A stretch of 64,000 bases of DNA from Bacteroidota bacterium (GTDB lineage Bacteria > Bacteroidota > Bacteroidia > Chitinophagales > Chitinophagaceae), in NCBI GenBank assembly GCA_018267675.1, contig JAFDYA010000038.1, positions 557 to 64,556 of the forward strand, written 5' to 3'. The translations under genes were made by a program, and so were the position numbers. How positions within the stretch are numbered: the stretch's first letter is position 1; each line of letters opens with the position of its first letter. Shown here piece by piece: positions 13,047-36,498 of the stretch. Below the pieces are notes generated by a model. That model searched no databases. It saw only the letters and a list, made by a program, of their open reading frames with translations, and was not told the origin of the DNA.

Positions 13047-13658
13047 TTAAAATAGTCCTCCGATCCGTAAGCCGAATTGAATGAAAAATCGGGTACCCTC
13101 ATATCTTTCCTGCATGGCACCTGTTTTAATATTGAAACCGAACTGAAAATTGTTTCGAATAAAGTTGAGTGAATTGTCCACGGCTATTCCATAAAGTGGA
13201 TAGTTGTAGTCGCTAGGAAGAGGTCGCGGGCCTCCGGAAATATTTTTTCCTTGATGATATACAAAAGACATGTTGCCCAATATTACGGAAGGGCCTGTTA
13301 CAAAATCTACTTTACTCCCTTTTTGAGCTGTATGAAACTGTAGCCCAGGAGCAATAAAATAGCAAGTGTGGGTTTGGTACGTGTCGTAATAATTACTATA
13401 ATCTTGATTGGGGTCAAAGCCATACACAATTGGGATATGAATGCCCAAACCTAGTTTTTTGCTGATAATATACTCATAGTCTAGGCCAACACCTGCGTTG
13501 AAATTGTTGAAGGCAAGAATGCCCGAAATAGGAGTAAGCGTAAATATATGGTCAAAGCCAAATTCATTTGGCTTTTCTTTTGGAATCTTGTTTTTCCCTT
13601 GTGCTGAAGTAGGCAAGCACAGCCCAAGAAAAAGAATATAAGTCAGGAGTAATTTCAT
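13047..13658 (-). CDS. Hypothetical outer-membrane beta-barrel protein
   Basis: 203 aa. Signal peptide (…PTSAQ), Gly/aromatic beta-strand pattern, and a terminal ...RIGGLF. Confidence 0.6.
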   Translation of the reverse strand: MKLLLTYILFLGLCLPTSAQGKNKIPKEKPNEFGFDHIFTLTPISGILAFNNFNAGVGLDYEYIISKKLGLGIHIPIVYGFDPNQDYSNYYDTYQTHTCYFIAPGLQFHTAQKGSKVDFVTGPSVILGNMSFVYHQGKNISGGPRPLPSDYNYPLYGIAVDNSLNFIRNNFQFGFNIKTGAMQERYEGTRFFIQFGLRIGGLF

Positions 13659-26916: not shown

Positions 26917-27849
26917 TTACTTTGCTTTAATACCGTAATCAGTAGCCGCTTTATTTTCTTTTTGAGCAATTTCAAATTGTAGTTCGCTTTCTCTTGGGCG
27001 GGGCAGCAGCTTGTGGTGACAGTGATACAGTACGGCAATGCTCAATATGGGTTTCATTTTAATCCCCGCTAATCGCAGACGGAATTCCACATCGGTATCT
27101 TCCCCAAATGTGGGCGCAGTATAGCGTTCGTCAAATCCGTTAATCAGGAGCAAGTCTTTCTTAAAGAGTGAAAAGTTGGCCCCGAGCAGGCCCCGATCAG
27201 CACGATTCAAGAATTTACGAATAATCGTGCTTTTGAAATAAATACCGTTCTTCCAATTCTGTAGATTATGAAAAAGGTAGTCTTTAAGCAGCAGCATTTT
27301 GCCACTAAACGTCTCCAATGTGCTCAGTTGGATCTTCTTTTTTAAAAGAGCTTGCGTAATCCCGGAAGATAAATCTACACGCCGCCCTACCAGGCAGTAT
27401 CCGGGTATTGATTCCTGAAGATGCTCGCTGACAAACTCAGCATGAGGAATACAGTCGCCATCCACAAAAATGAGGTAGTCTGATTGAGCTTTGACAACAC
27501 TACTATTCAGGATTTTATTTTTCCGAAAGCCATCATCAGGATGCCAGTTGTGCCGTATCGTTAAGGAGCTGTGCGCCATCAATTCCATTAACCCATCCTG
27601 GAAGGCTTTTCCAGAGCCATCATCAGAGATAATGAGCTCAAAATCTTTTTCTGTTTGCCGTTCAAATCCAGCTAAAACAAGTTTCAGAAACTCTAGGTTG
27701 TTGTAAACTGATATGATGATAGATGCTTTAAACGACACAGGGTAATGACCGGATATGAGGCCGCAAGGTAAGTTGGAAAATGAAGGAACTGTTTTTCCAA
27801 TTCTTCCAAACGATAGATTAGCCAATGCGGTAATAATCATTTTTTGCAT
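26917..27849 (-). CDS. Glycosyltransferase family 2
   Basis: 310 aa. Contains ASIIISVYNNLEFLKLVL...FELIISDDGS and a DGD motif (IFVDGDCIP). Confidence 0.85.
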   Translation of the reverse strand: MQKMIITALANLSFGRIGKTVPSFSNLPCGLISGHYPVSFKASIIISVYNNLEFLKLVLAGFERQTEKDFELIISDDGSGKAFQDGLMELMAHSSLTIRHNWHPDDGFRKNKILNSSVVKAQSDYLIFVDGDCIPHAEFVSEHLQESIPGYCLVGRRVDLSSGITQALLKKKIQLSTLETFSGKMLLLKDYLFHNLQNWKNGIYFKSTIIRKFLNRADRGLLGANFSLFKKDLLLINGFDERYTAPTFGEDTDVEFRLRLAGIKMKPILSIAVLYHCHHKLLPRPRESELQFEIAQKENKAATDYGIKAK

Positions 27850-27907
27850 TGACGGGAGTCATAAATAGGCTAGCAAAGCGACGGTTATTTTGATTTTCGT
27901 GTCCATA

Positions 27908-28297
27908 ATGCGCGCTTTTCTTCTTTTCCTTTGTTTGGCTTGTGCTGCCTTCACCGGCTTTGTCTATACAAGCGAAGGGCCAAGAACGGAAGCTGCACCA
28001 AGCCCTGCGGCGTTGGCGGGGATTCAGTTGTGGCAAGATAAAAATTGTCAGAGTTGCCATCAGCTTTACGGCTTAGGTGGCTATATGGGGCCGGACTTAA
28101 CAAATGTTGCGCGTAAGGGTGATCAGTACATGAGTTCGTTCCTAAAATCGGGCACAGAGCGGATGCCCAATTTTCAATTGTCGGAAAGTGAAATTGAAAG
28201 GATTTGTGCTTTCTTGCATTGGGTGGATCAGTCAGGAAGCGCAAGAGTATCCGCCGACGCTGTTCATTGGACCGGTAGTTACATTATTAAACCATGA
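27908..28297 (+). CDS. Membrane-anchored mono-haem c-type cytochrome, NorC-like
   Basis: N-terminal anchor helix. Has a CQSCH haem site inside LWQDKNCQSCHQLYGLGGYMGPDLTNV, then ERMPNFQLSESEIERICAFLHW. This pattern parallels NorC as recalled. ATG at 27908; the track start 27890 is TTG. Confidence 0.75.
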   Translation: MRAFLLFLCLACAAFTGFVYTSEGPRTEAAPSPAALAGIQLWQDKNCQSCHQLYGLGGYMGPDLTNVARKGDQYMSSFLKSGTERMPNFQLSESEIERICAFLHWVDQSGSARVSADAVHWTGSYIIKP

Positions 28298-29664
28298 GAC
28301 CCCTTCATCGACTTTTAGTCGGCTTTTCTTTAGCCCTACTCACACTGACCCTACTCGTAGGAACGATCTCGGCCTTTGCTTTTTTATTTCCAGAAGCTAG
28401 TAATCGTAGCATTCCGTTCTACATGCTTCGCCCGATGCATGTGTCTGCAGCATTGTTTTGGATCATCACCGGTGCTGTAAGTGGTATTTTGATCTATCTC
28501 CCAAAAGTGTATCCCTTCGCACAGCCGTCACCAAGGGTTGAGCGGAGCTTTGTGTTGCTCTGGCTCAGTACTATTGGCGTGATTTTTACTGCTTACGCGT
28601 TTAAAAAATTTGGTGGTCGTGAATATTGGGCATTTCCACCTTGGCTCGGCATACCCTTGTTAGTTGCTTGGGTATGCCTGTTGGTAGTTTATTTCCGAGC
28701 TTGGCGCAGTAGGAGCGATAGCCCATTATATGTCTGGATGTGGACGACCGGTGTTGTCGCATTCTTAGCAACATTCTTGGAGCAAAATCTTTATCATATC
28801 CCCTGGTTTCGGATGTCGTTCCTAAGAGAGCTGACGGTGCAATGGAAGAGTAATGGTGCGATGGTCGGTGCTTGGAATCAAATGATCTATGGTACGGCAC
28901 TTTTCCTGATGGTGCGCATTTCTGGAGATGAAAAGCTAGCAAAAAGCCGAAGTGCTTTTTTCTTCTATTTTCTTGGCCTGACCAATTTGATGTTCAACTG
29001 GGGGCATCATATCTACAACTTACCTACCAACCATTGGATTCGACATATTGCCTACGCCATTACCATGACGGAATGGATATTATTGGTCAATATTATCAGG
29101 GGGTTTCGAGCAAAATTGGCATCTGACCGAAAGTATCATTATCAGCTTCCATACCGCTTTCTAGCAGCGTCCGAATATTGGGTTTTGGCCAATCTCGTGT
29201 TGGCCTTATTTATGTCAATCCCGGCAATAAACAGATATACTCACGGCACGCATATTACAGTCGCTCACGCTATGGGGGCAACTATTGGCATCAATACCAT
29301 GATCCTTTTAGCTTCTTTTGGCTATGCCTTAAAAATTGACCGCTTAGGCTCAGCGCTTAGAAAGAACATTGCTAAATACTTCGTATTGGTGCAAGTTTTT
29401 CTGGTGATATTTTGGTTGGCGTTGATCAGTGCCGGTGTCCTCAAGGCATGGCGGGAGACGGTTTTGGGTATGAATTCATTTGACGAAATAATGAGGCCGG
29501 TTCGGGTGGTATTGTATTTGTTTGCCATCGCTGGCGTGGGCTTATTTTTCTCAATGTTGCCGATTATTCGGGCTTATTGGCTCGCCCTAAAACAACTAGG
29601 GCAGGGGGCAAAGAATGTGTCCCATAACACAATACAACAGCCAATGGAAGAGCAACCAAACTAA
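28294..29664 (+). CDS. Haem-copper-oxidase superfamily subunit I, NorB-like, with non-canonical active-site ligands
   Basis: 456 aa and about 12 TM helices. Has RPMH49, GRE109-110, WGH238H239 and THGTHITVAH325. The start overlaps the cytochrome c stop (ATGA at 28294..28297). Confidence 0.8.
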   Translation: MRPLHRLLVGFSLALLTLTLLVGTISAFAFLFPEASNRSIPFYMLRPMHVSAALFWIITGAVSGILIYLPKVYPFAQPSPRVERSFVLLWLSTIGVIFTAYAFKKFGGREYWAFPPWLGIPLLVAWVCLLVVYFRAWRSRSDSPLYVWMWTTGVVAFLATFLEQNLYHIPWFRMSFLRELTVQWKSNGAMVGAWNQMIYGTALFLMVRISGDEKLAKSRSAFFFYFLGLTNLMFNWGHHIYNLPTNHWIRHIAYAITMTEWILLVNIIRGFRAKLASDRKYHYQLPYRFLAASEYWVLANLVLALFMSIPAINRYTHGTHITVAHAMGATIGINTMILLASFGYALKIDRLGSALRKNIAKYFVLVQVFLVIFWLALISAGVLKAWRETVLGMNSFDEIMRPVRVVLYLFAIAGVGLFFSMLPIIRAYWLALKQLGQGAKNVSHNTIQQPMEEQPN

Positions 29665-33999: not shown

Positions 34000-36498
34000 C
34001 TATTCTTCTACAAATACCCGTTTTACTCGTGCTGAAATGCCGGTCATGATTTCATAGGGAATAGTGTGTGCCCATTGAGCAATCTGGGTGAGTGGTAGTT
34101 CGGATCCAAATACTTGTACCATGTCGCCTTCTTTTACATCGGGAATACCGGTAACGTCCACCATACACATGTCCATACAAACCACACCAACAATCGGCGC
34201 TGCATGCCCATGGATGAGTACATGCCCTCGCCCATGCCCTAATGCGCGTGGGTAGCCGTCTGCATAGCCCACAGATATTGTCGCAACCCTTCGCAAATGA
34301 GCTGCTGCATCTTGGTGGCCATAACCGATACCTTCATTTGCCGGCAATTCGTTGAGTTGTGCAATGCGGGTACTTAGGCTGCCAATGGGGCACAATTCTG
34401 TGTTGTCGGGGTTTCCGGCATCTATCCCATATAGCCCTAGTCCTAGTCGTACCATATCATAATGCAATTCCGGATGCCGAGTAATACCTGCAGTATTGCA
34501 AAGATGGCGAAGGGCAGGCTTGGGTAATATTTGGATGAGCTCGGCGCTCATGGCTTCAAAGCGCTCCGCCTGTCTGGCTGTAAAGCTGTCCAACTCGGAA
34601 GACTCAGACCCTGATAAGTGGGAAAAGATTGAAACAACTGATAAGTTGGGGCAAGCATTGAGTTTTGCACCAAGTGTTTGAATCGAATCGAGATCAAAGC
34701 CAAGCCGATGCATGCCGGTATCCAACTTGATATGGATTGGATATTGGTGAACGGAGAGCGTTGCGGCTACCTGGGCAAATGCTTCAAGCGATCGGAAATT
34801 GTAAATTTCCGGCTCCAATTTCCAAGCAATCATTCGGTCTATTGCCGATAGTTCCGGGCTCATCACCATGATAGGCACAGTGATACCCGCTTTGCGAAGC
34901 ACAATCCCTTCGTCGGTATAGGCCACTGTGAGGTAATCCACACCTGCATCTTGCAAGGCACCGGCAATCTCATGGCTGCCACTACCATAAGAAAAAGCCT
35001 TGACCATGGCCATAAGCTTCACACCCGGCGCCAACTTATTCCGGAAGTAATTGAGGTTTTGCCGAAGTGCAGGGAGACTTATACTGAGTACCGTTTGGTG
35101 CACTTCTTCATCTAGCAAGGCGGCAATTTTCTCAAAGTAGAAGCTGCGCGCACCTTTCAAAAGAATAACCTCGTCTTCAAAACTCAGGAGGTGAAACTTC
35201 TTCAAAAACTCTTCGGTACTCTTGAAAAAAATGCTTCGTAAGTCTTTGTGCTCCCGGAAAAGATTTTTGTGTCGGTATAATGCCGGGCCAATCCCAATGA
35301 ACCTTTTAATGTGTCGTTTGAGCAACATGGCCAATACTTCTTCGTACAATTCAGCGTCCGGGCGACCCATTTGGAGGATATCAGACAAGATTACGGTACG
35401 GCGCGAGTGTTGGCGTTGACTAACCAGATAATCCAGCGAGATGGCAAGGGAGGTGATGTCGGAATTATAAGCATCATTGATCACGGTGGAGTTCGCTATT
35501 CCTTTCCTTGTCTCTAAGCGCATCTCAATGGGTTGAAGTTGCAGCAAGCGAGTTTTTATTTGCTCCTGCTCAATATTCAGATGCAATAGACAACACCAAA
35601 CTTGAATGGCATTTTCTACCGACGCAGCATCGGTAAAGGGTATTCGTATATGCAGCGTTTGTTGCTGGTAGTCTGCCGTCAAATCTGTAAAATGTCCTGC
35701 TACAGCTAGCTCCCGAATGACCAAGGTGGCATCTCCCTTAAATGACCAGGTGAAGCAAGCCTTCTTTGGCTCAGTTTCACTCTTAGTATTGTTTACGAAT
35801 GTGGCAACACATTCATGCACGTCTGCGTAGTCCCGACAATAAATGAGTGTGGCTACATGACGGAACAAGATGAGCTTCTCATTTATTTTTTGCCGTTGGT
35901 TGAGGAATCCTTCGCTATGTGCAGCACCGATATTGGTAAATATGCCCAAACTGGGTCGGATAATCTTTTCTAGACGTTCCATCTCACCAGGTTGGGAGAT
36001 ACCGGCTTCAAAAATGCCTAATTGTGTTTCTTTTCTAAGCCGCCAAACGGATAGCGGCACCCCTATCTGGGAGTTATAGCTTTTGGGGTTCCGAGTAATG
36101 TTATAGTCTTCGGATAGCGCTTGATAGAGCCATTCTTTCACAATGGTTTTCCCGTTACTTCCCGTAATTCCGATTACGGGTATAGCGAAGGAGTTGCGGT
36201 GCTGTGCCGCTATTATTTGCAAAGCCTGTACGGTATCGTTTACTAATAATAGTCCGGCACCCGGGTATTGGGCCGCATCAATGCGGGTGCTGATAACAAA
36301 AAGGCGAATACCCGCAGCATAGGCAGCCGGCAAATAATTATGGCCATCTCTTCTTCCGGATTTGATGGCAAAGAAGGCAGCTTTTCCCGGGTTGTTTATT
36401 TTTCTGGTGTCAATACACAACTCCTGAATACGATGAACGGGGATTGTGCTTAGCCATTCTCCCTGTGTCCATTGTTTGAGTTGTTCCGGAGTTTGCAC
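34000..36498 (-). CDS. Bifunctional UDP-MurNAc-tripeptide--D-Ala-D-Ala ligase / alanine racemase
   Basis: 832 aa. The N-terminal ~450 aa are Mur-ligase-like (ITGSNGKT). The C-terminal ~370 aa are a PLP racemase (AMVKAFSYGSG ... VCMDMCMVDV). Confidence 0.9.
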   Translation of the reverse strand: MQTPEQLKQWTQGEWLSTIPVHRIQELCIDTRKINNPGKAAFFAIKSGRRDGHNYLPAAYAAGIRLFVISTRIDAAQYPGAGLLLVNDTVQALQIIAAQHRNSFAIPVIGITGSNGKTIVKEWLYQALSEDYNITRNPKSYNSQIGVPLSVWRLRKETQLGIFEAGISQPGEMERLEKIIRPSLGIFTNIGAAHSEGFLNQRQKINEKLILFRHVATLIYCRDYADVHECVATFVNNTKSETEPKKACFTWSFKGDATLVIRELAVAGHFTDLTADYQQQTLHIRIPFTDAASVENAIQVWCCLLHLNIEQEQIKTRLLQLQPIEMRLETRKGIANSTVINDAYNSDITSLAISLDYLVSQRQHSRRTVILSDILQMGRPDAELYEEVLAMLLKRHIKRFIGIGPALYRHKNLFREHKDLRSIFFKSTEEFLKKFHLLSFEDEVILLKGARSFYFEKIAALLDEEVHQTVLSISLPALRQNLNYFRNKLAPGVKLMAMVKAFSYGSGSHEIAGALQDAGVDYLTVAYTDEGIVLRKAGITVPIMVMSPELSAIDRMIAWKLEPEIYNFRSLEAFAQVAATLSVHQYPIHIKLDTGMHRLGFDLDSIQTLGAKLNACPNLSVVSIFSHLSGSESSELDSFTARQAERFEAMSAELIQILPKPALRHLCNTAGITRHPELHYDMVRLGLGLYGIDAGNPDNTELCPIGSLSTRIAQLNELPANEGIGYGHQDAAAHLRRVATISVGYADGYPRALGHGRGHVLIHGHAAPIVGVVCMDMCMVDVTGIPDVKEGDMVQVFGSELPLTQIAQWAHTIPYEIMTGISARVKRVFVEE

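What the first reader, a model, noticed from the sequence alone, without database searches (positions are those of the whole stretch)
27908..29664. NorC/NorB-like two-gene module whose catalytic subunit has Asn for the helix-VI metal ligand and Met for the second helix-X histidine
The small ORF is a membrane-anchored CxxCH cytochrome whose sequence tracks NorC. Compare LWQDKNCQSCHQLYGLGGYMGPDLTNV and ERMPNFQLSE..AFLHW with NorC VWEQNNCVGCHTLLGEGAYFAPELGNV and RAMPQFHLSE..EFLKW, as I recall them. It is translationally coupled (ATGA) to a 12-TM haem-copper-oxidase subunit I. I aligned that protein by eye to Pseudomonas NorB, recalled from memory. It keeps R-x-x-H49 (low-spin haem), GRE, the helix-VII pair H238-H239 and helix-X H325. 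A gap-free alignment back from the HH pair matches G192/G212, W194/W214 and RISG/KITG. That alignment puts N187 where cNOR has H207, and V191 and N195 where cNOR has the glutamates E211 and E215. The otherwise universal helix-X H-x-H reads H325-A-M327, implying a His/Met or otherwise altered low-spin haem. No norQ/norD (FeB-insertion) genes are adjacent; the flanks are a divergent GT2 gene and convergent uvrA. A bioinformatically proposed NOR-related family (called nNOR in the Hemp/Gennis-style classification, if I recall correctly) is described as having Asn at this ligand position and is biochemically uncharacterised. This module may belong to it. Its substrate (NO, O2, N2O or other) and active-site metal are open questions.
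Basis: partly seen in the sequence, partly recalled or inferred. Interest (0 to 1): 0.7.

Follow-up and report, generated by a model that had tools for sequence, protein, structure and literature searches.

The report
cNOR-like haem enzyme, remodelled active site
A two-gene membrane enzyme related to bacterial nitric-oxide reductase has lost key metal-binding residues; it belongs to a widespread, untested Bacteroidota family that may affect how much nitrous oxide (a greenhouse gas) soil and wastewater bacteria make or consume.

Summary
The module is real. It has a NorC-like monohaem cytochrome c (27908-28297) overlapping by ATGA a 456-aa haem-copper-oxidase subunit I (28294-29664). NorB of cNOR is the closest solved structure. 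No histidine occupies the helix-VI metal-ligand region. Helix X reads H325-A-M327, so the low-spin haem would be His/Met.

Two points change.
- Four of five alignments put Gly188, not Asn187, at the ligand position. Asn187 is conserved only in the Bacteroidota clade and is mostly Tyr elsewhere. Lys185, Gly188, Asn195 and Met327 are conserved much more widely.
- This is not nNOR. Published nNOR is B-family-related, has a CuA-type subunit and keeps three His plus Glu. The remembered "Asn" belongs to NO dismutase. The probable home is the uncharacterised cNOR-related family that Murali et al. (2024) call "N2O red".

At least 523 species genomes, almost all Bacteroidota, encode relatives. In 49 of 78 loci the module lies within 10 kb of nos genes or an Rrf2/RIC/hemerythrin set. 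A CRP/FNR-type box precedes it in 50 of 69 loci and in this window (27850-27861).

Best guess: a low-oxygen-induced, cytochrome-c-dependent NO reductase variant. Function is untested.

The parts
27850..27861 (.). CRP/FNR-type box TGACGGGAGTCA. Its centre lies 52 bp upstream of the ATG of the cytochrome c gene.
   Evidence: TGAYN4RTCA occurs within 150 bp upstream of the orthologous gene in 50 of 69 related loci, against 0.037 expected per 150 bp. The 64-kb window has only two matches.
27908..28297 (+). NorC-like membrane-anchored monohaem cytochrome c, 129 aa. An alternative TTG start lies at 27890.
   Evidence: Pfam Cytochrome_CBB3 at 5.7e-9. PDB NorC 3o0r_C at 8e-13 and 4xyd_B at 1.2e-7. A homologue sits immediately upstream of the large subunit in 70 of 78 loci.
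28046..28060 (+). Haem c attachment motif C47-Q-S-C50-H51. The axial Met candidate is M86 (28163-28165). Y59 aligns with the NorC Ca2+ ligand Tyr73.
   Evidence: Translation. Alignment to NorC. Motifs are conserved at 90% or more in 72 sequences.
28294..29664 (+). Haem-copper-oxidase subunit I of the cNOR/cbb3 branch, 456 aa and about 12 TM helices.
   Evidence: Pfam COX1. Family profile against PDB: NorB 6e-32 and 1.3e-24, CcoN 6.6e-22, qNOR 1.8e-18. AF2 pLDDT 83, pTM 0.87. Foldseek TM 0.75-0.79 to NorB and CcoN.
28438..28440 (+). H49, the first axial ligand of the low-spin haem (Pa NorB H60).
   Evidence: Invariant in A1 and A2. Alignments.
28846..28857 (+). K185-S-N187-G188 at the start of helix VI, where cNOR and cbb3 carry the FeB/CuB histidine.
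   Evidence: Translation. H207 aligns to G188, and to N187. K185 and G188 are conserved family-wide; N187 only in the Bacteroidota clade.
28876..28878 (+). N195, in place of cNOR E215.
   Evidence: All alignments agree. Conserved in 90% or more of A2.
29005..29010 (+). H238-H239, the retained helix-VII pair of non-haem-metal ligands.
   Evidence: Translation. Invariant in A1 and A2.
29071..29073 (+). E260, equivalent to cNOR E280 near the active site.
   Evidence: Alignment 'mtEwi' against 'alEpl'. Invariant in the K185-type group and Ala in the H185/D188 subgroup.
29266..29274 (+). H325-A-M327. H325 is the proximal ligand of the catalytic haem. M327 replaces the second low-spin-haem histidine (Pa H349).
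   Evidence: Translation. 'VAHAM' aligns with 'AAHGH'. M327 is present in nearly all 82 representatives.

Best explanation
The module encodes a two-subunit, cytochrome-c-dependent membrane reductase. It belongs to a distinct, uncharacterised sister family of cNOR within the haem-copper superfamily, probably the family listed as "N2O red" by Murali et al. 2024.

Inferred electron path: periplasmic donor, then haem c of the NorC-like subunit (C47xxC50H51, Met86), then a His49/Met327 low-spin haem b of raised potential, then a high-spin haem bound to His325.

The distal non-haem site is remodelled. H238, H239 and E260 (the E280 equivalent) are kept. The helix-VI His is replaced by Gly188, the Glu211 position is deleted and Glu215 is Asn195. 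An invariant Lys185, one turn upstream, is the candidate third ligand or proton and charge donor. Asn187 is a clade-specific neighbour.

Most likely function: reduction of NO to N2O under low oxygen or nitrosative stress, as detoxification or as a step of truncated denitrification. The N2O would feed the clade II NosZ that many of these genomes encode next door. Expression would be driven from a CRP/FNR-type box.

Shown: architecture, homology, residue pattern, conservation, gene context and the conserved box. Inferred: cofactor ligation, the role of Lys185, the regulator and the substrate.
For: - Homology to NorC and NorB.
- Retained cNOR features: R109-E110 (the Ca2+ site E135), NorC-type Tyr59, E179 (D198), H317 (H339) and E260 (E280).
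- The electron-entry chain is intact, which argues for a reductase rather than a dismutase.
- Family-wide conservation of K185, G188, N195, H238, H239, H325 and M327.
- Gene context in 78 genome loci: 33 have an Rrf2 regulator, 30 have RIC (TIGR03652, 228 bits), 25 have a hemerythrin, 17 have clade II NosZ (946 bits) and 28 have NosD/NosF. In all, 49 of 78 have nos genes or the Rrf2/RIC/hemerythrin set within 10 kb.
- A TGAYN4RTCA box lies upstream in 50 of 69 loci and at 27850-27861 in the window. The same box precedes HemN, a Crp/Fnr gene and the nos-linked cytochrome c.
- JGI annotates relatives as NorB.
- About 9% of Bacteroidota genomes with denitrification genes are reported to carry nir and nosZ but no recognised nor. 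An unrecognised NOR would fill that gap (10.1101/2025.01.07.631734).
Against: - No member has been assayed.
- The residues that mutagenesis and structures implicate in cNOR catalysis (H207, E211, E215) are all absent, so cNOR-type chemistry cannot be assumed.
- The only published suggestion for the probable family is N2O reduction, not NO reduction.
- FNR-type control fits a cbb3-like oxidase equally well.
- In this window the module stands alone. No nos, RIC or Rrf2 gene lies within 64 kb.
- The role of Lys185 rests on sequence alignment and on one phylogenetic split (K185/G188 against H185/D188), not on coordinates. I could not inspect model geometry.
- Cloacibacterium CB-01 is reported to have "cNor" but only minor NO reductase activity (PMC11168931). 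I could not check whether that gene belongs to this family.
Confidence: 0.45

Rival explanations
1. It is a membrane-bound, NosZ-independent nitrous oxide reductase. This is the speculative assignment Murali et al. gave to the cNOR-related family, prompted by the sulfide- and acetylene-insensitive, membrane-bound N2O reductase activity of Flexibacter canadensis.
For: - The published suggestion for a cNOR-related family lacking the Tyr cofactor.
- The family is essentially confined to Bacteroidota, including Sphingobacteriales, the group of F. canadensis.
- The FeB ligand set is lost, which points to chemistry different from cNOR.
- A high-potential His/Met haem b suits a very oxidising substrate.
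Against: - 32 of 78 loci carry nos genes within 10 kb (17 a clade II nosZ, 28 nosD/nosF), so an alternative N2O reductase would be redundant there.
- The tightest neighbours are the Rrf2, RIC and hemerythrin genes.
- I know of no biochemical precedent for haem-based N2O reduction in this superfamily.
- I could not test whether F. canadensis encodes the protein.
Confidence: 0.15
2. It is a divergent cbb3-like oxygen reductase or O2 scavenger induced at low oxygen.
For: - NCBI names it cbb3-type subunit I.
- Its fold is as close to CcoN as to NorB, TM 0.77-0.79.
- The helix-VI motif ELTVQW..G..VG matches cbb3 DAMVQWWYGHNAVG without gaps.
- Some relatives are fused to FixO/CcoO plus cytochrome c domains.
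- FNR-type boxes are typical of cco operons (established knowledge).
Against: - There is no CuB His on helix VI and no Tyr at the cbb3 Y251-equivalent position (L232), so no His-Tyr cofactor is possible.
- Bona fide ccoN genes coexist in the same loci (L019, L028).
- NCBI gives the same name to true NorB, so the name carries no information.
Confidence: 0.1
3. It catalyses some other reaction at a haem-only or Lys-assisted distal pocket, for example peroxide, nitrite or hydroxylamine turnover, or NO dismutation. Alternatively it acts as a haem-based sensor or electron sink.
For: - The ligand set is unlike that of any characterised family member.
- The pocket is rich in Asn: N187, N195, N231, N235, N242, N313 and N334 are all conserved in the near clade.
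- The putative NO dismutases show a comparable loss of one His.
- No NorQ/NorD metal-insertion genes lie nearby.
Against: - The complete electron-input chain (haem c and low-spin haem b) argues against a dismutase or a sensor.
- Gene context points specifically to N-oxide metabolism.
- Nothing positively indicates another substrate.
Confidence: 0.15
4. It is a member of the nNOR family.
For: His/Met ligation of the low-spin haem is also the published hallmark of nNOR.
Against: - nNOR is B-family-related, has a CuA-type cupredoxin subunit and keeps three His plus Glu.
- This protein groups with cNOR, cbb3 and qNOR. B- and A-family structures are far weaker matches.
- Its partner subunit is a NorC-like cytochrome c.
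- It lacks the helix-VI His and Glu.
Confidence: 0.03

Closest known systems
cNOR (NorCB), e.g. P. aeruginosa 3O0R and Roseobacter denitrificans 4XYD
   Same: - A two-gene norC-norB-like arrangement.
- A membrane-anchored monohaem c subunit with CxxCH, a Met ligand and the Ca2+-ligand Tyr.
- A 12-TM subunit I.
- Retained H60, H258, H259, H347, H339, R134/E135, D198 and E280 equivalents.
- The best sequence and fold match among solved structures.
   Different: - H207 is replaced by Gly188, with Asn187 adjacent and Lys185 upstream.
- The E211 position is deleted, or is Val191 in the gap-free register.
- E215 is replaced by Asn195.
- H349 is replaced by Met327.
- There is no norQ or norD.
- Only about 18-19% identity. 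Single-sequence phmmer against 1.84 billion representatives found only 326 proteins at E<=1e-3, so the family is a compact separate clade.
"N2O red" HCO family of Murali, Hemp, Gennis et al. 2024 (PMC11214002)
   Same: - Described as closely related to cNOR within the C-family branch.
- Lacks the active-site Tyr and is uncharacterised.
- The rationale comes from a Bacteroidota organism.
- The size is of the right order: 293 GTDB r202 genomes there, against at least 523 species in r232 here.
   Different: Identity with that family is inferred by elimination. The authors' HMMs, alignments and supplements were not available. The context found here favours NO handling rather than N2O reduction.
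nNOR (Murali et al. 2024)
   Same: The low-spin haem is predicted to be His/Met ligated, raising its potential.
   Different: nNOR is B-family-derived, has a CuA-type subunit II, keeps the three-His-plus-Glu site and has a conserved cytoplasmic proton channel. None of these applies here.
Putative NO dismutase (NOD; qNOR-like DAMO_2434/2437)
   Same: One of the non-haem-metal His ligands is lost (to Asn in NOD) and a catalytic Glu is substituted.
   Different: NOD is a fused qNOR-type polypeptide of about 800 aa, without haem c and without an electron-entry site. This enzyme has a separate haem c subunit and an intact low-spin haem.
cbb3 oxidase CcoN/CcoO (C family), e.g. 3MK7
   Same: Equal fold similarity, the shared helix-VI motif (D/E)xxVQW and a homologous cytochrome c partner. 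Some relatives are fused to FixO domains.
   Different: No CuB His207 equivalent, no Tyr251 equivalent, and Met instead of the second low-spin-haem His.
gNOR (Murali et al. 2024)
   Same: A precedent for replacing one active-site His in this superfamily (Asp in gNOR). The distant H185/D188 subgroup of the present family has Asp at the same column.
   Different: gNOR is B-family-derived, has a cupredoxin-fold subunit lacking CuA and is probably quinol-dependent.

Membership tests
cNOR (NorCB) | NorC-type membrane-anchored monohaem cytochrome c encoded immediately upstream of subunit I | tested here: met
   3o0r_C at 8e-13. CxxCH, Met86 and Tyr59 align. ATGA overlap.
cNOR (NorCB) | Subunit I with the HCO fold, closest to NorB | tested here: met
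   Family profile against NorB at 6e-32 and 1.3e-24. Foldseek top hits 4xyd_A and 3o0r_B.
cNOR (NorCB) | Six-histidine signature (Pa H60, H207, H258, H259, H347, H349) | tested here: not met
   Four of six are present. There is no His in residues 172-205, and H349 is replaced by M327.
cNOR (NorCB) | FeB carboxylate ligand E211 and nearby E215 | tested here: not met
   E211 is deleted or is V191. E215 is N195. This holds family-wide.
cNOR (NorCB) | E280 and the Ca2+ site (NorB E135, NorC Tyr73) | tested here: met
   E260, R109-E110 and Y59 align and are conserved.
cNOR (NorCB) | NO reductase activity | not testable with these tools
   No biochemical data were found for any member.
nNOR (Murali 2024) | [quoted passage not shown] | tested here: not met
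   The profile search finds only cNOR, cbb3 and qNOR. ba3 structures match at TM about 0.64 and E about 3e-4, against 5e-9 for cNOR.
nNOR (Murali 2024) | CuA-type (cupredoxin) secondary subunit | tested here: not met
   The partner is a c-type cytochrome.
nNOR (Murali 2024) | Active site identical to cNOR (three His plus Glu) | tested here: not met
   The helix-VI His and Glu are absent.
nNOR (Murali 2024) | His/Met low-spin haem | tested here: met
   H49 and M327 by alignment.
"N2O red" HCO family (Murali 2024) | Closely related to cNOR within the C-family branch, but distinct from cNOR, qNOR and NOD | tested here: met
   Paper text.
"N2O red" HCO family (Murali 2024) | No active-site Tyr able to form the His-Tyr cofactor | tested here: met
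   L232 occupies the cbb3 Y251 column, and no helix-VI His is available to cross-link.
"N2O red" HCO family (Murali 2024) | Scores best with the authors' family HMM, or is present in Flexibacter/Solitalea canadensis | not testable with these tools
   The supplements and HMMs are not held.
NO dismutase (NOD) | qNOR-type fused polypeptide without haem c and without an electron-entry site | tested here: not met
   A 456-aa subunit with a separate haem c subunit. Paper text.
cbb3 oxidase (C family) | CuB bound by three His, with a helix-VII Tyr cross-linked to the helix-VI His | tested here: not met
   G188 at the His column and L232 at the Tyr column.

The most novel reading that the evidence does not exclude
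The enzyme is a haem-copper-superfamily reductase whose distal site is built from two His plus a Lys, or has no second metal at all. It would carry out chemistry not known for this superfamily. The most consequential possibility is a NosZ-independent, acetylene- and sulfide-insensitive reduction of N2O to N2, which would be a second biological sink for this greenhouse gas. It is widespread in soil and wastewater Bacteroidota.
Probability: 0.15. Interest if true: 0.9.

Novelty: new member of a known kind. Interest (0 to 1): 0.55.

Why it matters
Bacteroidota make up the majority of the nosZ-carrying "terminator" genomes in one denitrification-gene survey, and about 9% of the Bacteroidota genomes that carry denitrification genes have nir and nosZ but no recognised nor.

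Relatives of this module are encoded in at least 523 species genomes and often lie beside nosZ. The family is invisible to, or mislabelled by, standard annotation: NCBI calls it "cbb3-type oxidase" and JGI calls it "NorB".
- If it reduces NO, gene-based budgets of N2O production miss a producer.
- If it reduces N2O, they miss a sink.

Mechanistically, it is a natural experiment on the binuclear centre: the canonical helix-VI His and both glutamates are gone, a conserved Lys appears and the low-spin haem becomes His/Met. Characterising it would test which features of the cNOR site are truly needed for N-N bond formation.

Tried and rejected
- **Model geometry.** I looked for AF2 coordinates to measure distances around K185, N187, H238 and H239. 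None are exposed, so the register question rests on sequence and profile alignments only.
- **NorB profile.** I spent one large protein search on P. aeruginosa NorB to build a NorB profile. The 120 hits listed were all at least 82% identical. The hhalign template profile is therefore shallow (Neff 1.6).
- **Literature.** The PNAS supplements and the 2022 BBA paper by Murali et al. are not held, so I could not read the published active-site description of the "N2O red" family. Searches for Flexibacter/Solitalea canadensis found nothing further.
- **Cloacibacterium lead.** Strain CB-01 is reported to have "cNor" but only minor NO reductase activity. I could not tie that gene to this family.
- **Upstream motif.** Naive k-mer counting did not reveal a motif. 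Reading the sequences did, and I then quantified it.
- **Promoter and terminator scan.** The sigma-70 scan was uninformative, and that promoter model is not the Bacteroidota type (established knowledge).
- **Window context.** tblastn of the conserved neighbour clusters against the window found only the two module genes.
- **Neighbour membrane proteins.** The 417-aa and 419-aa proteins are not detectably related to each other and match no Pfam or NCBIfam family.
- **Pseudogene or decay reading.** Rejected. Dozens of invariant residues are kept across 28 to 82 diverse sequences.
Full report
**1. What is in the sequence**

Two same-strand ORFs occupy the reported interval.
- The small ORF is 27908-28297 (129 aa from the ATG; a TTG lies 18 nt upstream).
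- The large ORF is 28294-29664 (456 aa).
- The stop of the first overlaps the start of the second as ATGA.
- The flanks are a divergent GT2 glycosyltransferase and a convergent uvrA.

The small protein has a hydrophobic N-terminus and one CQSCH motif. It matches Pfam Cytochrome_CBB3. Its best solved relatives are NorC of P. aeruginosa (3o0r_C, 8e-13) and of Roseobacter (4xyd_B, 1.2e-7).

The large protein matches Pfam COX1 (1.9e-21) but no NCBIfam model. A gene caller found exactly these two genes on an independent assembly of the same sequence.

**2. Family and nearest relatives**

An AlphaFold2 model built on 28 relatives is confident overall (pLDDT 83, pTM 0.87). It is weakest at residues 181-190 and 317-326, the stretches that would contact cofactors.

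| Comparison | Result |
|---|---|
| Foldseek, cNOR NorB 4xyd_A | E 5.2e-9 |
| Foldseek, cNOR NorB 3o0r_B | E 8.5e-9 |
| Foldseek, cbb3 CcoN | TM 0.77-0.79 |
| Foldseek, qNOR | ranked next |
| Foldseek, B- and A-family oxidases | far behind |
| 70-sequence family profile, NorB | 6e-32 and 1.3e-24 |
| Same profile, CcoN | 6.6e-22 |
| Same profile, qNOR | 1.8e-18 |

The family is compact. Single-sequence phmmer over 1.84 billion cluster representatives found only 326 at E<=1e-3.

It is nevertheless common.
- More than 3,000 clusters at 90% identity match at E<=1e-5.
- At least 523 species genomes carry the motifs HITVAHAM or TIGIN[TS]MI. Almost all are Bacteroidota: Chitinophagaceae, Flavipsychrobacter, Taibaiella, Flavobacteriales, Sphingobacteriales and Saprospiraceae.
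- Two are isolates: Chitinophaga silvisoli and Pararcticibacter amylolyticus.

**3. The active-site residues**

Features shared with cNOR and kept here (P. aeruginosa numbering in brackets):
- H49 (H60)
- R109-E110 (R134/E135, the Ca2+ site)
- E179 (D198)
- H238-H239 (H258/H259)
- E260 (E280)
- H317 (H339)
- H325 (H347)
- In the small subunit, Tyr59 and Met86 (NorC Tyr73 and Met112)

Features lost:
- Helix X reads H325-A-M327 where cNOR has H347-G-H349. Met is present in nearly all 82 full-length representatives.
- No His occurs anywhere in residues 172-205.

I rebuilt the NorB and CcoN sequences from the printed alignments. I checked them against residue numbers I know from the literature (H60, H207, H258/H259, H347/H349, E135 and E280 for NorB; Y251 for CcoN). 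All matched.

**4. Which residue replaces the helix-VI histidine?**

| Method | Residue opposite H207 |
|---|---|
| Family profile against Pa NorB | G188 |
| MAFFT --add | G188 |
| hhalign profile-profile | G188 |
| Family profile against two cbb3 CcoN chains, gapless (DAMVQWWYGHNAVG against ELTVQWKSNGAMVG) | G188 |
| Two genuine Bacteroidota CcoN sequences in my own alignment | column 188 |

The three NorB alignments that give G188 treat cNOR E211 as a one-residue insertion.

Conservation points the same way.
- N187 is invariant only in the near clade (28 of 28 in A1; 75 of 78 genome loci). In the wider family it is mostly Tyr and otherwise highly variable.
- K185 and G188 are conserved throughout the main group.
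- N195 and M327 are conserved across the whole family.
- A distant subgroup switches together to H185 (occasionally Q185), D188 and A260. That would restore a three-His-plus-carboxylate set. It suggests that columns 185 and 188 face the metal site.
- This is one phylogenetic split, so it is weak evidence.

My reading is that the ligand His has become Gly. An invariant Lys one turn earlier could reach into the vacated space. Asn187 is a clade-specific neighbour. I could not check geometry because model coordinates are not exposed.

**5. Gene context**

I called ORFs in 80 related genome loci and clustered them. Counts below are for the 78 loci in which my caller found the large subunit.

| Neighbour within 10 kb | Loci (of 78) |
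|---|---|
| NorC-like gene immediately upstream | 70 |
| Rrf2-family regulator | 33 |
| 417-aa membrane protein with no family match | 33 |
| DUF2249-ScdA-hemerythrin protein (RIC equivalog TIGR03652, 228 bits) | 30 |
| Small hemerythrin | 25 |
| NosD / NosF | 28 |
| NosY | 24 |
| Sec-type clade II NosZ (946 bits) | 17 |
| NosL | 17 |

- A frequent downstream gene string is hemerythrin, Rrf2 regulator, the 417-aa membrane protein, then RIC.
- The nos genes often sit convergently next to this string.
- In all, 49 of 78 loci have nos genes or the Rrf2/RIC/hemerythrin set within 10 kb.
- MbnP/MbnH-like pairs occur in 11-12 loci.
- None of the 36 commonest neighbour clusters, which I read or scanned, looks like NorQ or NorD.
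- In the window itself none of these neighbours occurs within 64 kb.

**6. A conserved regulatory box ties the window's copy to the others**

Reading the upstream regions showed a recurrent TGAYN4RTCA(T) palindrome. It has the TGA-N6-TCA core of CRP/FNR-family sites (established knowledge).

- It occurs within 150 bp upstream of the cytochrome c gene in 50 of 69 loci that have enough sequence.
- The expectation is 0.037 per 150 bp of locus sequence.
- It occurs upstream of 12.8% of the other genes in these loci.
- The centre usually lies 36-100 bp before the ATG. The consensus is aTaTGAYnnnnRTCATaTTTT.
- The window has TGACGGGAGTCA at 27850-27861, centred 52 bp before the ATG. It is one of only two matches in 64 kb.

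The same box precedes several neighbours.

| Gene | Loci with the box |
|---|---|
| Fasciclin-domain gene | 12 of 18 |
| Multicopper oxidase | 8 of 13 |
| Crp/Fnr regulator gene | 7 of 15 |
| MbnP | 7 of 13 |
| nos-linked cytochrome c | 6 of 11 |
| Oxygen-independent HemN | 4 of 5 |

This looks like a low-oxygen or denitrification regulon. The regulator and its signal are inferred, not shown.

**7. Comparison with the literature**

- Murali, Hemp, Gennis and co-workers (PMC11214002) define nNOR as B-family-related. It has a CuA-type subunit, the same three-His-plus-Glu site as cNOR and a His/Met low-spin haem. Only the last feature fits, so this is not nNOR.
- Replacement of a ligand His by Asn is the published trait of the qNOR-like NO dismutases (PMC3413370).
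- The 2024 paper and its preprint also list a family "closely related to cNOR". [quoted passage not shown] It counted 293 GTDB r202 genomes.
- Three things make that the probable home of this module: its position in the cNOR/cbb3 branch, its Bacteroidota distribution and elimination of the other named families.
- I could not confirm this, because the authors' HMMs and supplements are not held. I found no biochemical characterisation.

**8. Function**

The intact electron-entry chain argues for a reductase. The context (Rrf2 regulator, RIC, hemerythrins, nos genes, FNR-type box) points to N-oxide metabolism at low oxygen.

I favour NO reduction to N2O, with confidence of about 0.45.
- NsrR-type Rrf2 regulators and RIC proteins are hallmarks of the bacterial NO-stress response (established knowledge). 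I did not test whether this Rrf2 protein is an NsrR.
- nos genes next door make a second N2O reductase redundant in those loci. They would fit an enzyme that supplies NosZ with substrate.

N2O reduction (0.15), oxygen reduction (0.1) and other chemistry (0.15) are not excluded. The loss of H207, E211 and E215 means cNOR-type chemistry cannot simply be assumed.

**9. Verdict**

The interpretation needs three corrections:
- The residue at the ligand position is Gly188 with Lys185 upstream, rather than Asn187.
- The family is not nNOR.
- The family has probably already been flagged in the literature.

It is a member of a bioinformatically known but experimentally untouched family. Its active site is unusual, and it has a plausible link to N2O budgets.

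Noticed in passing
L006:14166-15419 (also 32 other loci); L070:15350-16609; L078:7656-9467: Three conserved neighbour families match no Pfam or NCBIfam model, even at E<=5. A 417-aa polytopic membrane protein lies between the Rrf2 regulator and RIC in 33 of 78 loci. A 419-aa membrane protein occurs in 10 loci. A 603-aa soluble protein lies upstream of the module in 14 loci, often with the FNR-type box. The two membrane proteins are not detectably related to each other.
   Followed up: partly
P0140, P0154, P0162, P0183 (relatives, about 790-824 aa): Some distant family members are single polypeptides that fuse the HCO subunit I to a FixO/CcoO-like domain plus further c-type cytochrome domains.
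   Followed up: partly
Alignment columns 185/187/188/260 of A2; representative P0232: Outside the Bacteroidota clade, position 187 is mostly Tyr, next to the missing His. A distant subgroup carries H185 (or Q185), D188 and A260 instead of K185, G188 and E260. Its representative P0232 has the same cytochrome c plus HCO gene pair with a 4-bp overlap, in a context unrelated to the nitrogen cycle.
   Followed up: partly
L014:3048-4847, L006, L013, L021, L031, L066, L067: An MbnP/MbnH-like pair lies directly beside the module in 11-12 loci, and the MbnP gene is often preceded by the FNR-type box. In methanobactin operons such pairs are linked to copper acquisition (established knowledge). This may hint at a copper requirement of the module or of the nos genes.
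   Followed up: no
window 34000-36498 (-): An 832-aa ORF combines Mur ligase middle and C-terminal domains with alanine racemase N- and C-terminal domains, according to the precomputed Pfam hits. This looks like a ligase-racemase fusion.
   Followed up: no
window 13405-13416: The only other exact match to TGAYN4RTCA in the window (TGATTGGGGTCA) lies inside the ORF at 13047-13658. It is probably a chance match.
   Followed up: no
Database names for P0001-P0120 and P0271-P0390: NCBI labels both this family and many genuine Pseudomonas NorB proteins as 'cbb3-type cytochrome c oxidase subunit I'. JGI labels this family 'nitric oxide reductase subunit B'. Neither name separates the two families.
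   Followed up: yes
window 27850-27907: The intergenic region between the divergent GT2 gene (start codon at 27849) and the cytochrome c gene is only 58 bp. The FNR-type box directly abuts the GT2 start codon, so either the GT2 start is mis-called or the two genes share a very compact control region.
   Followed up: no
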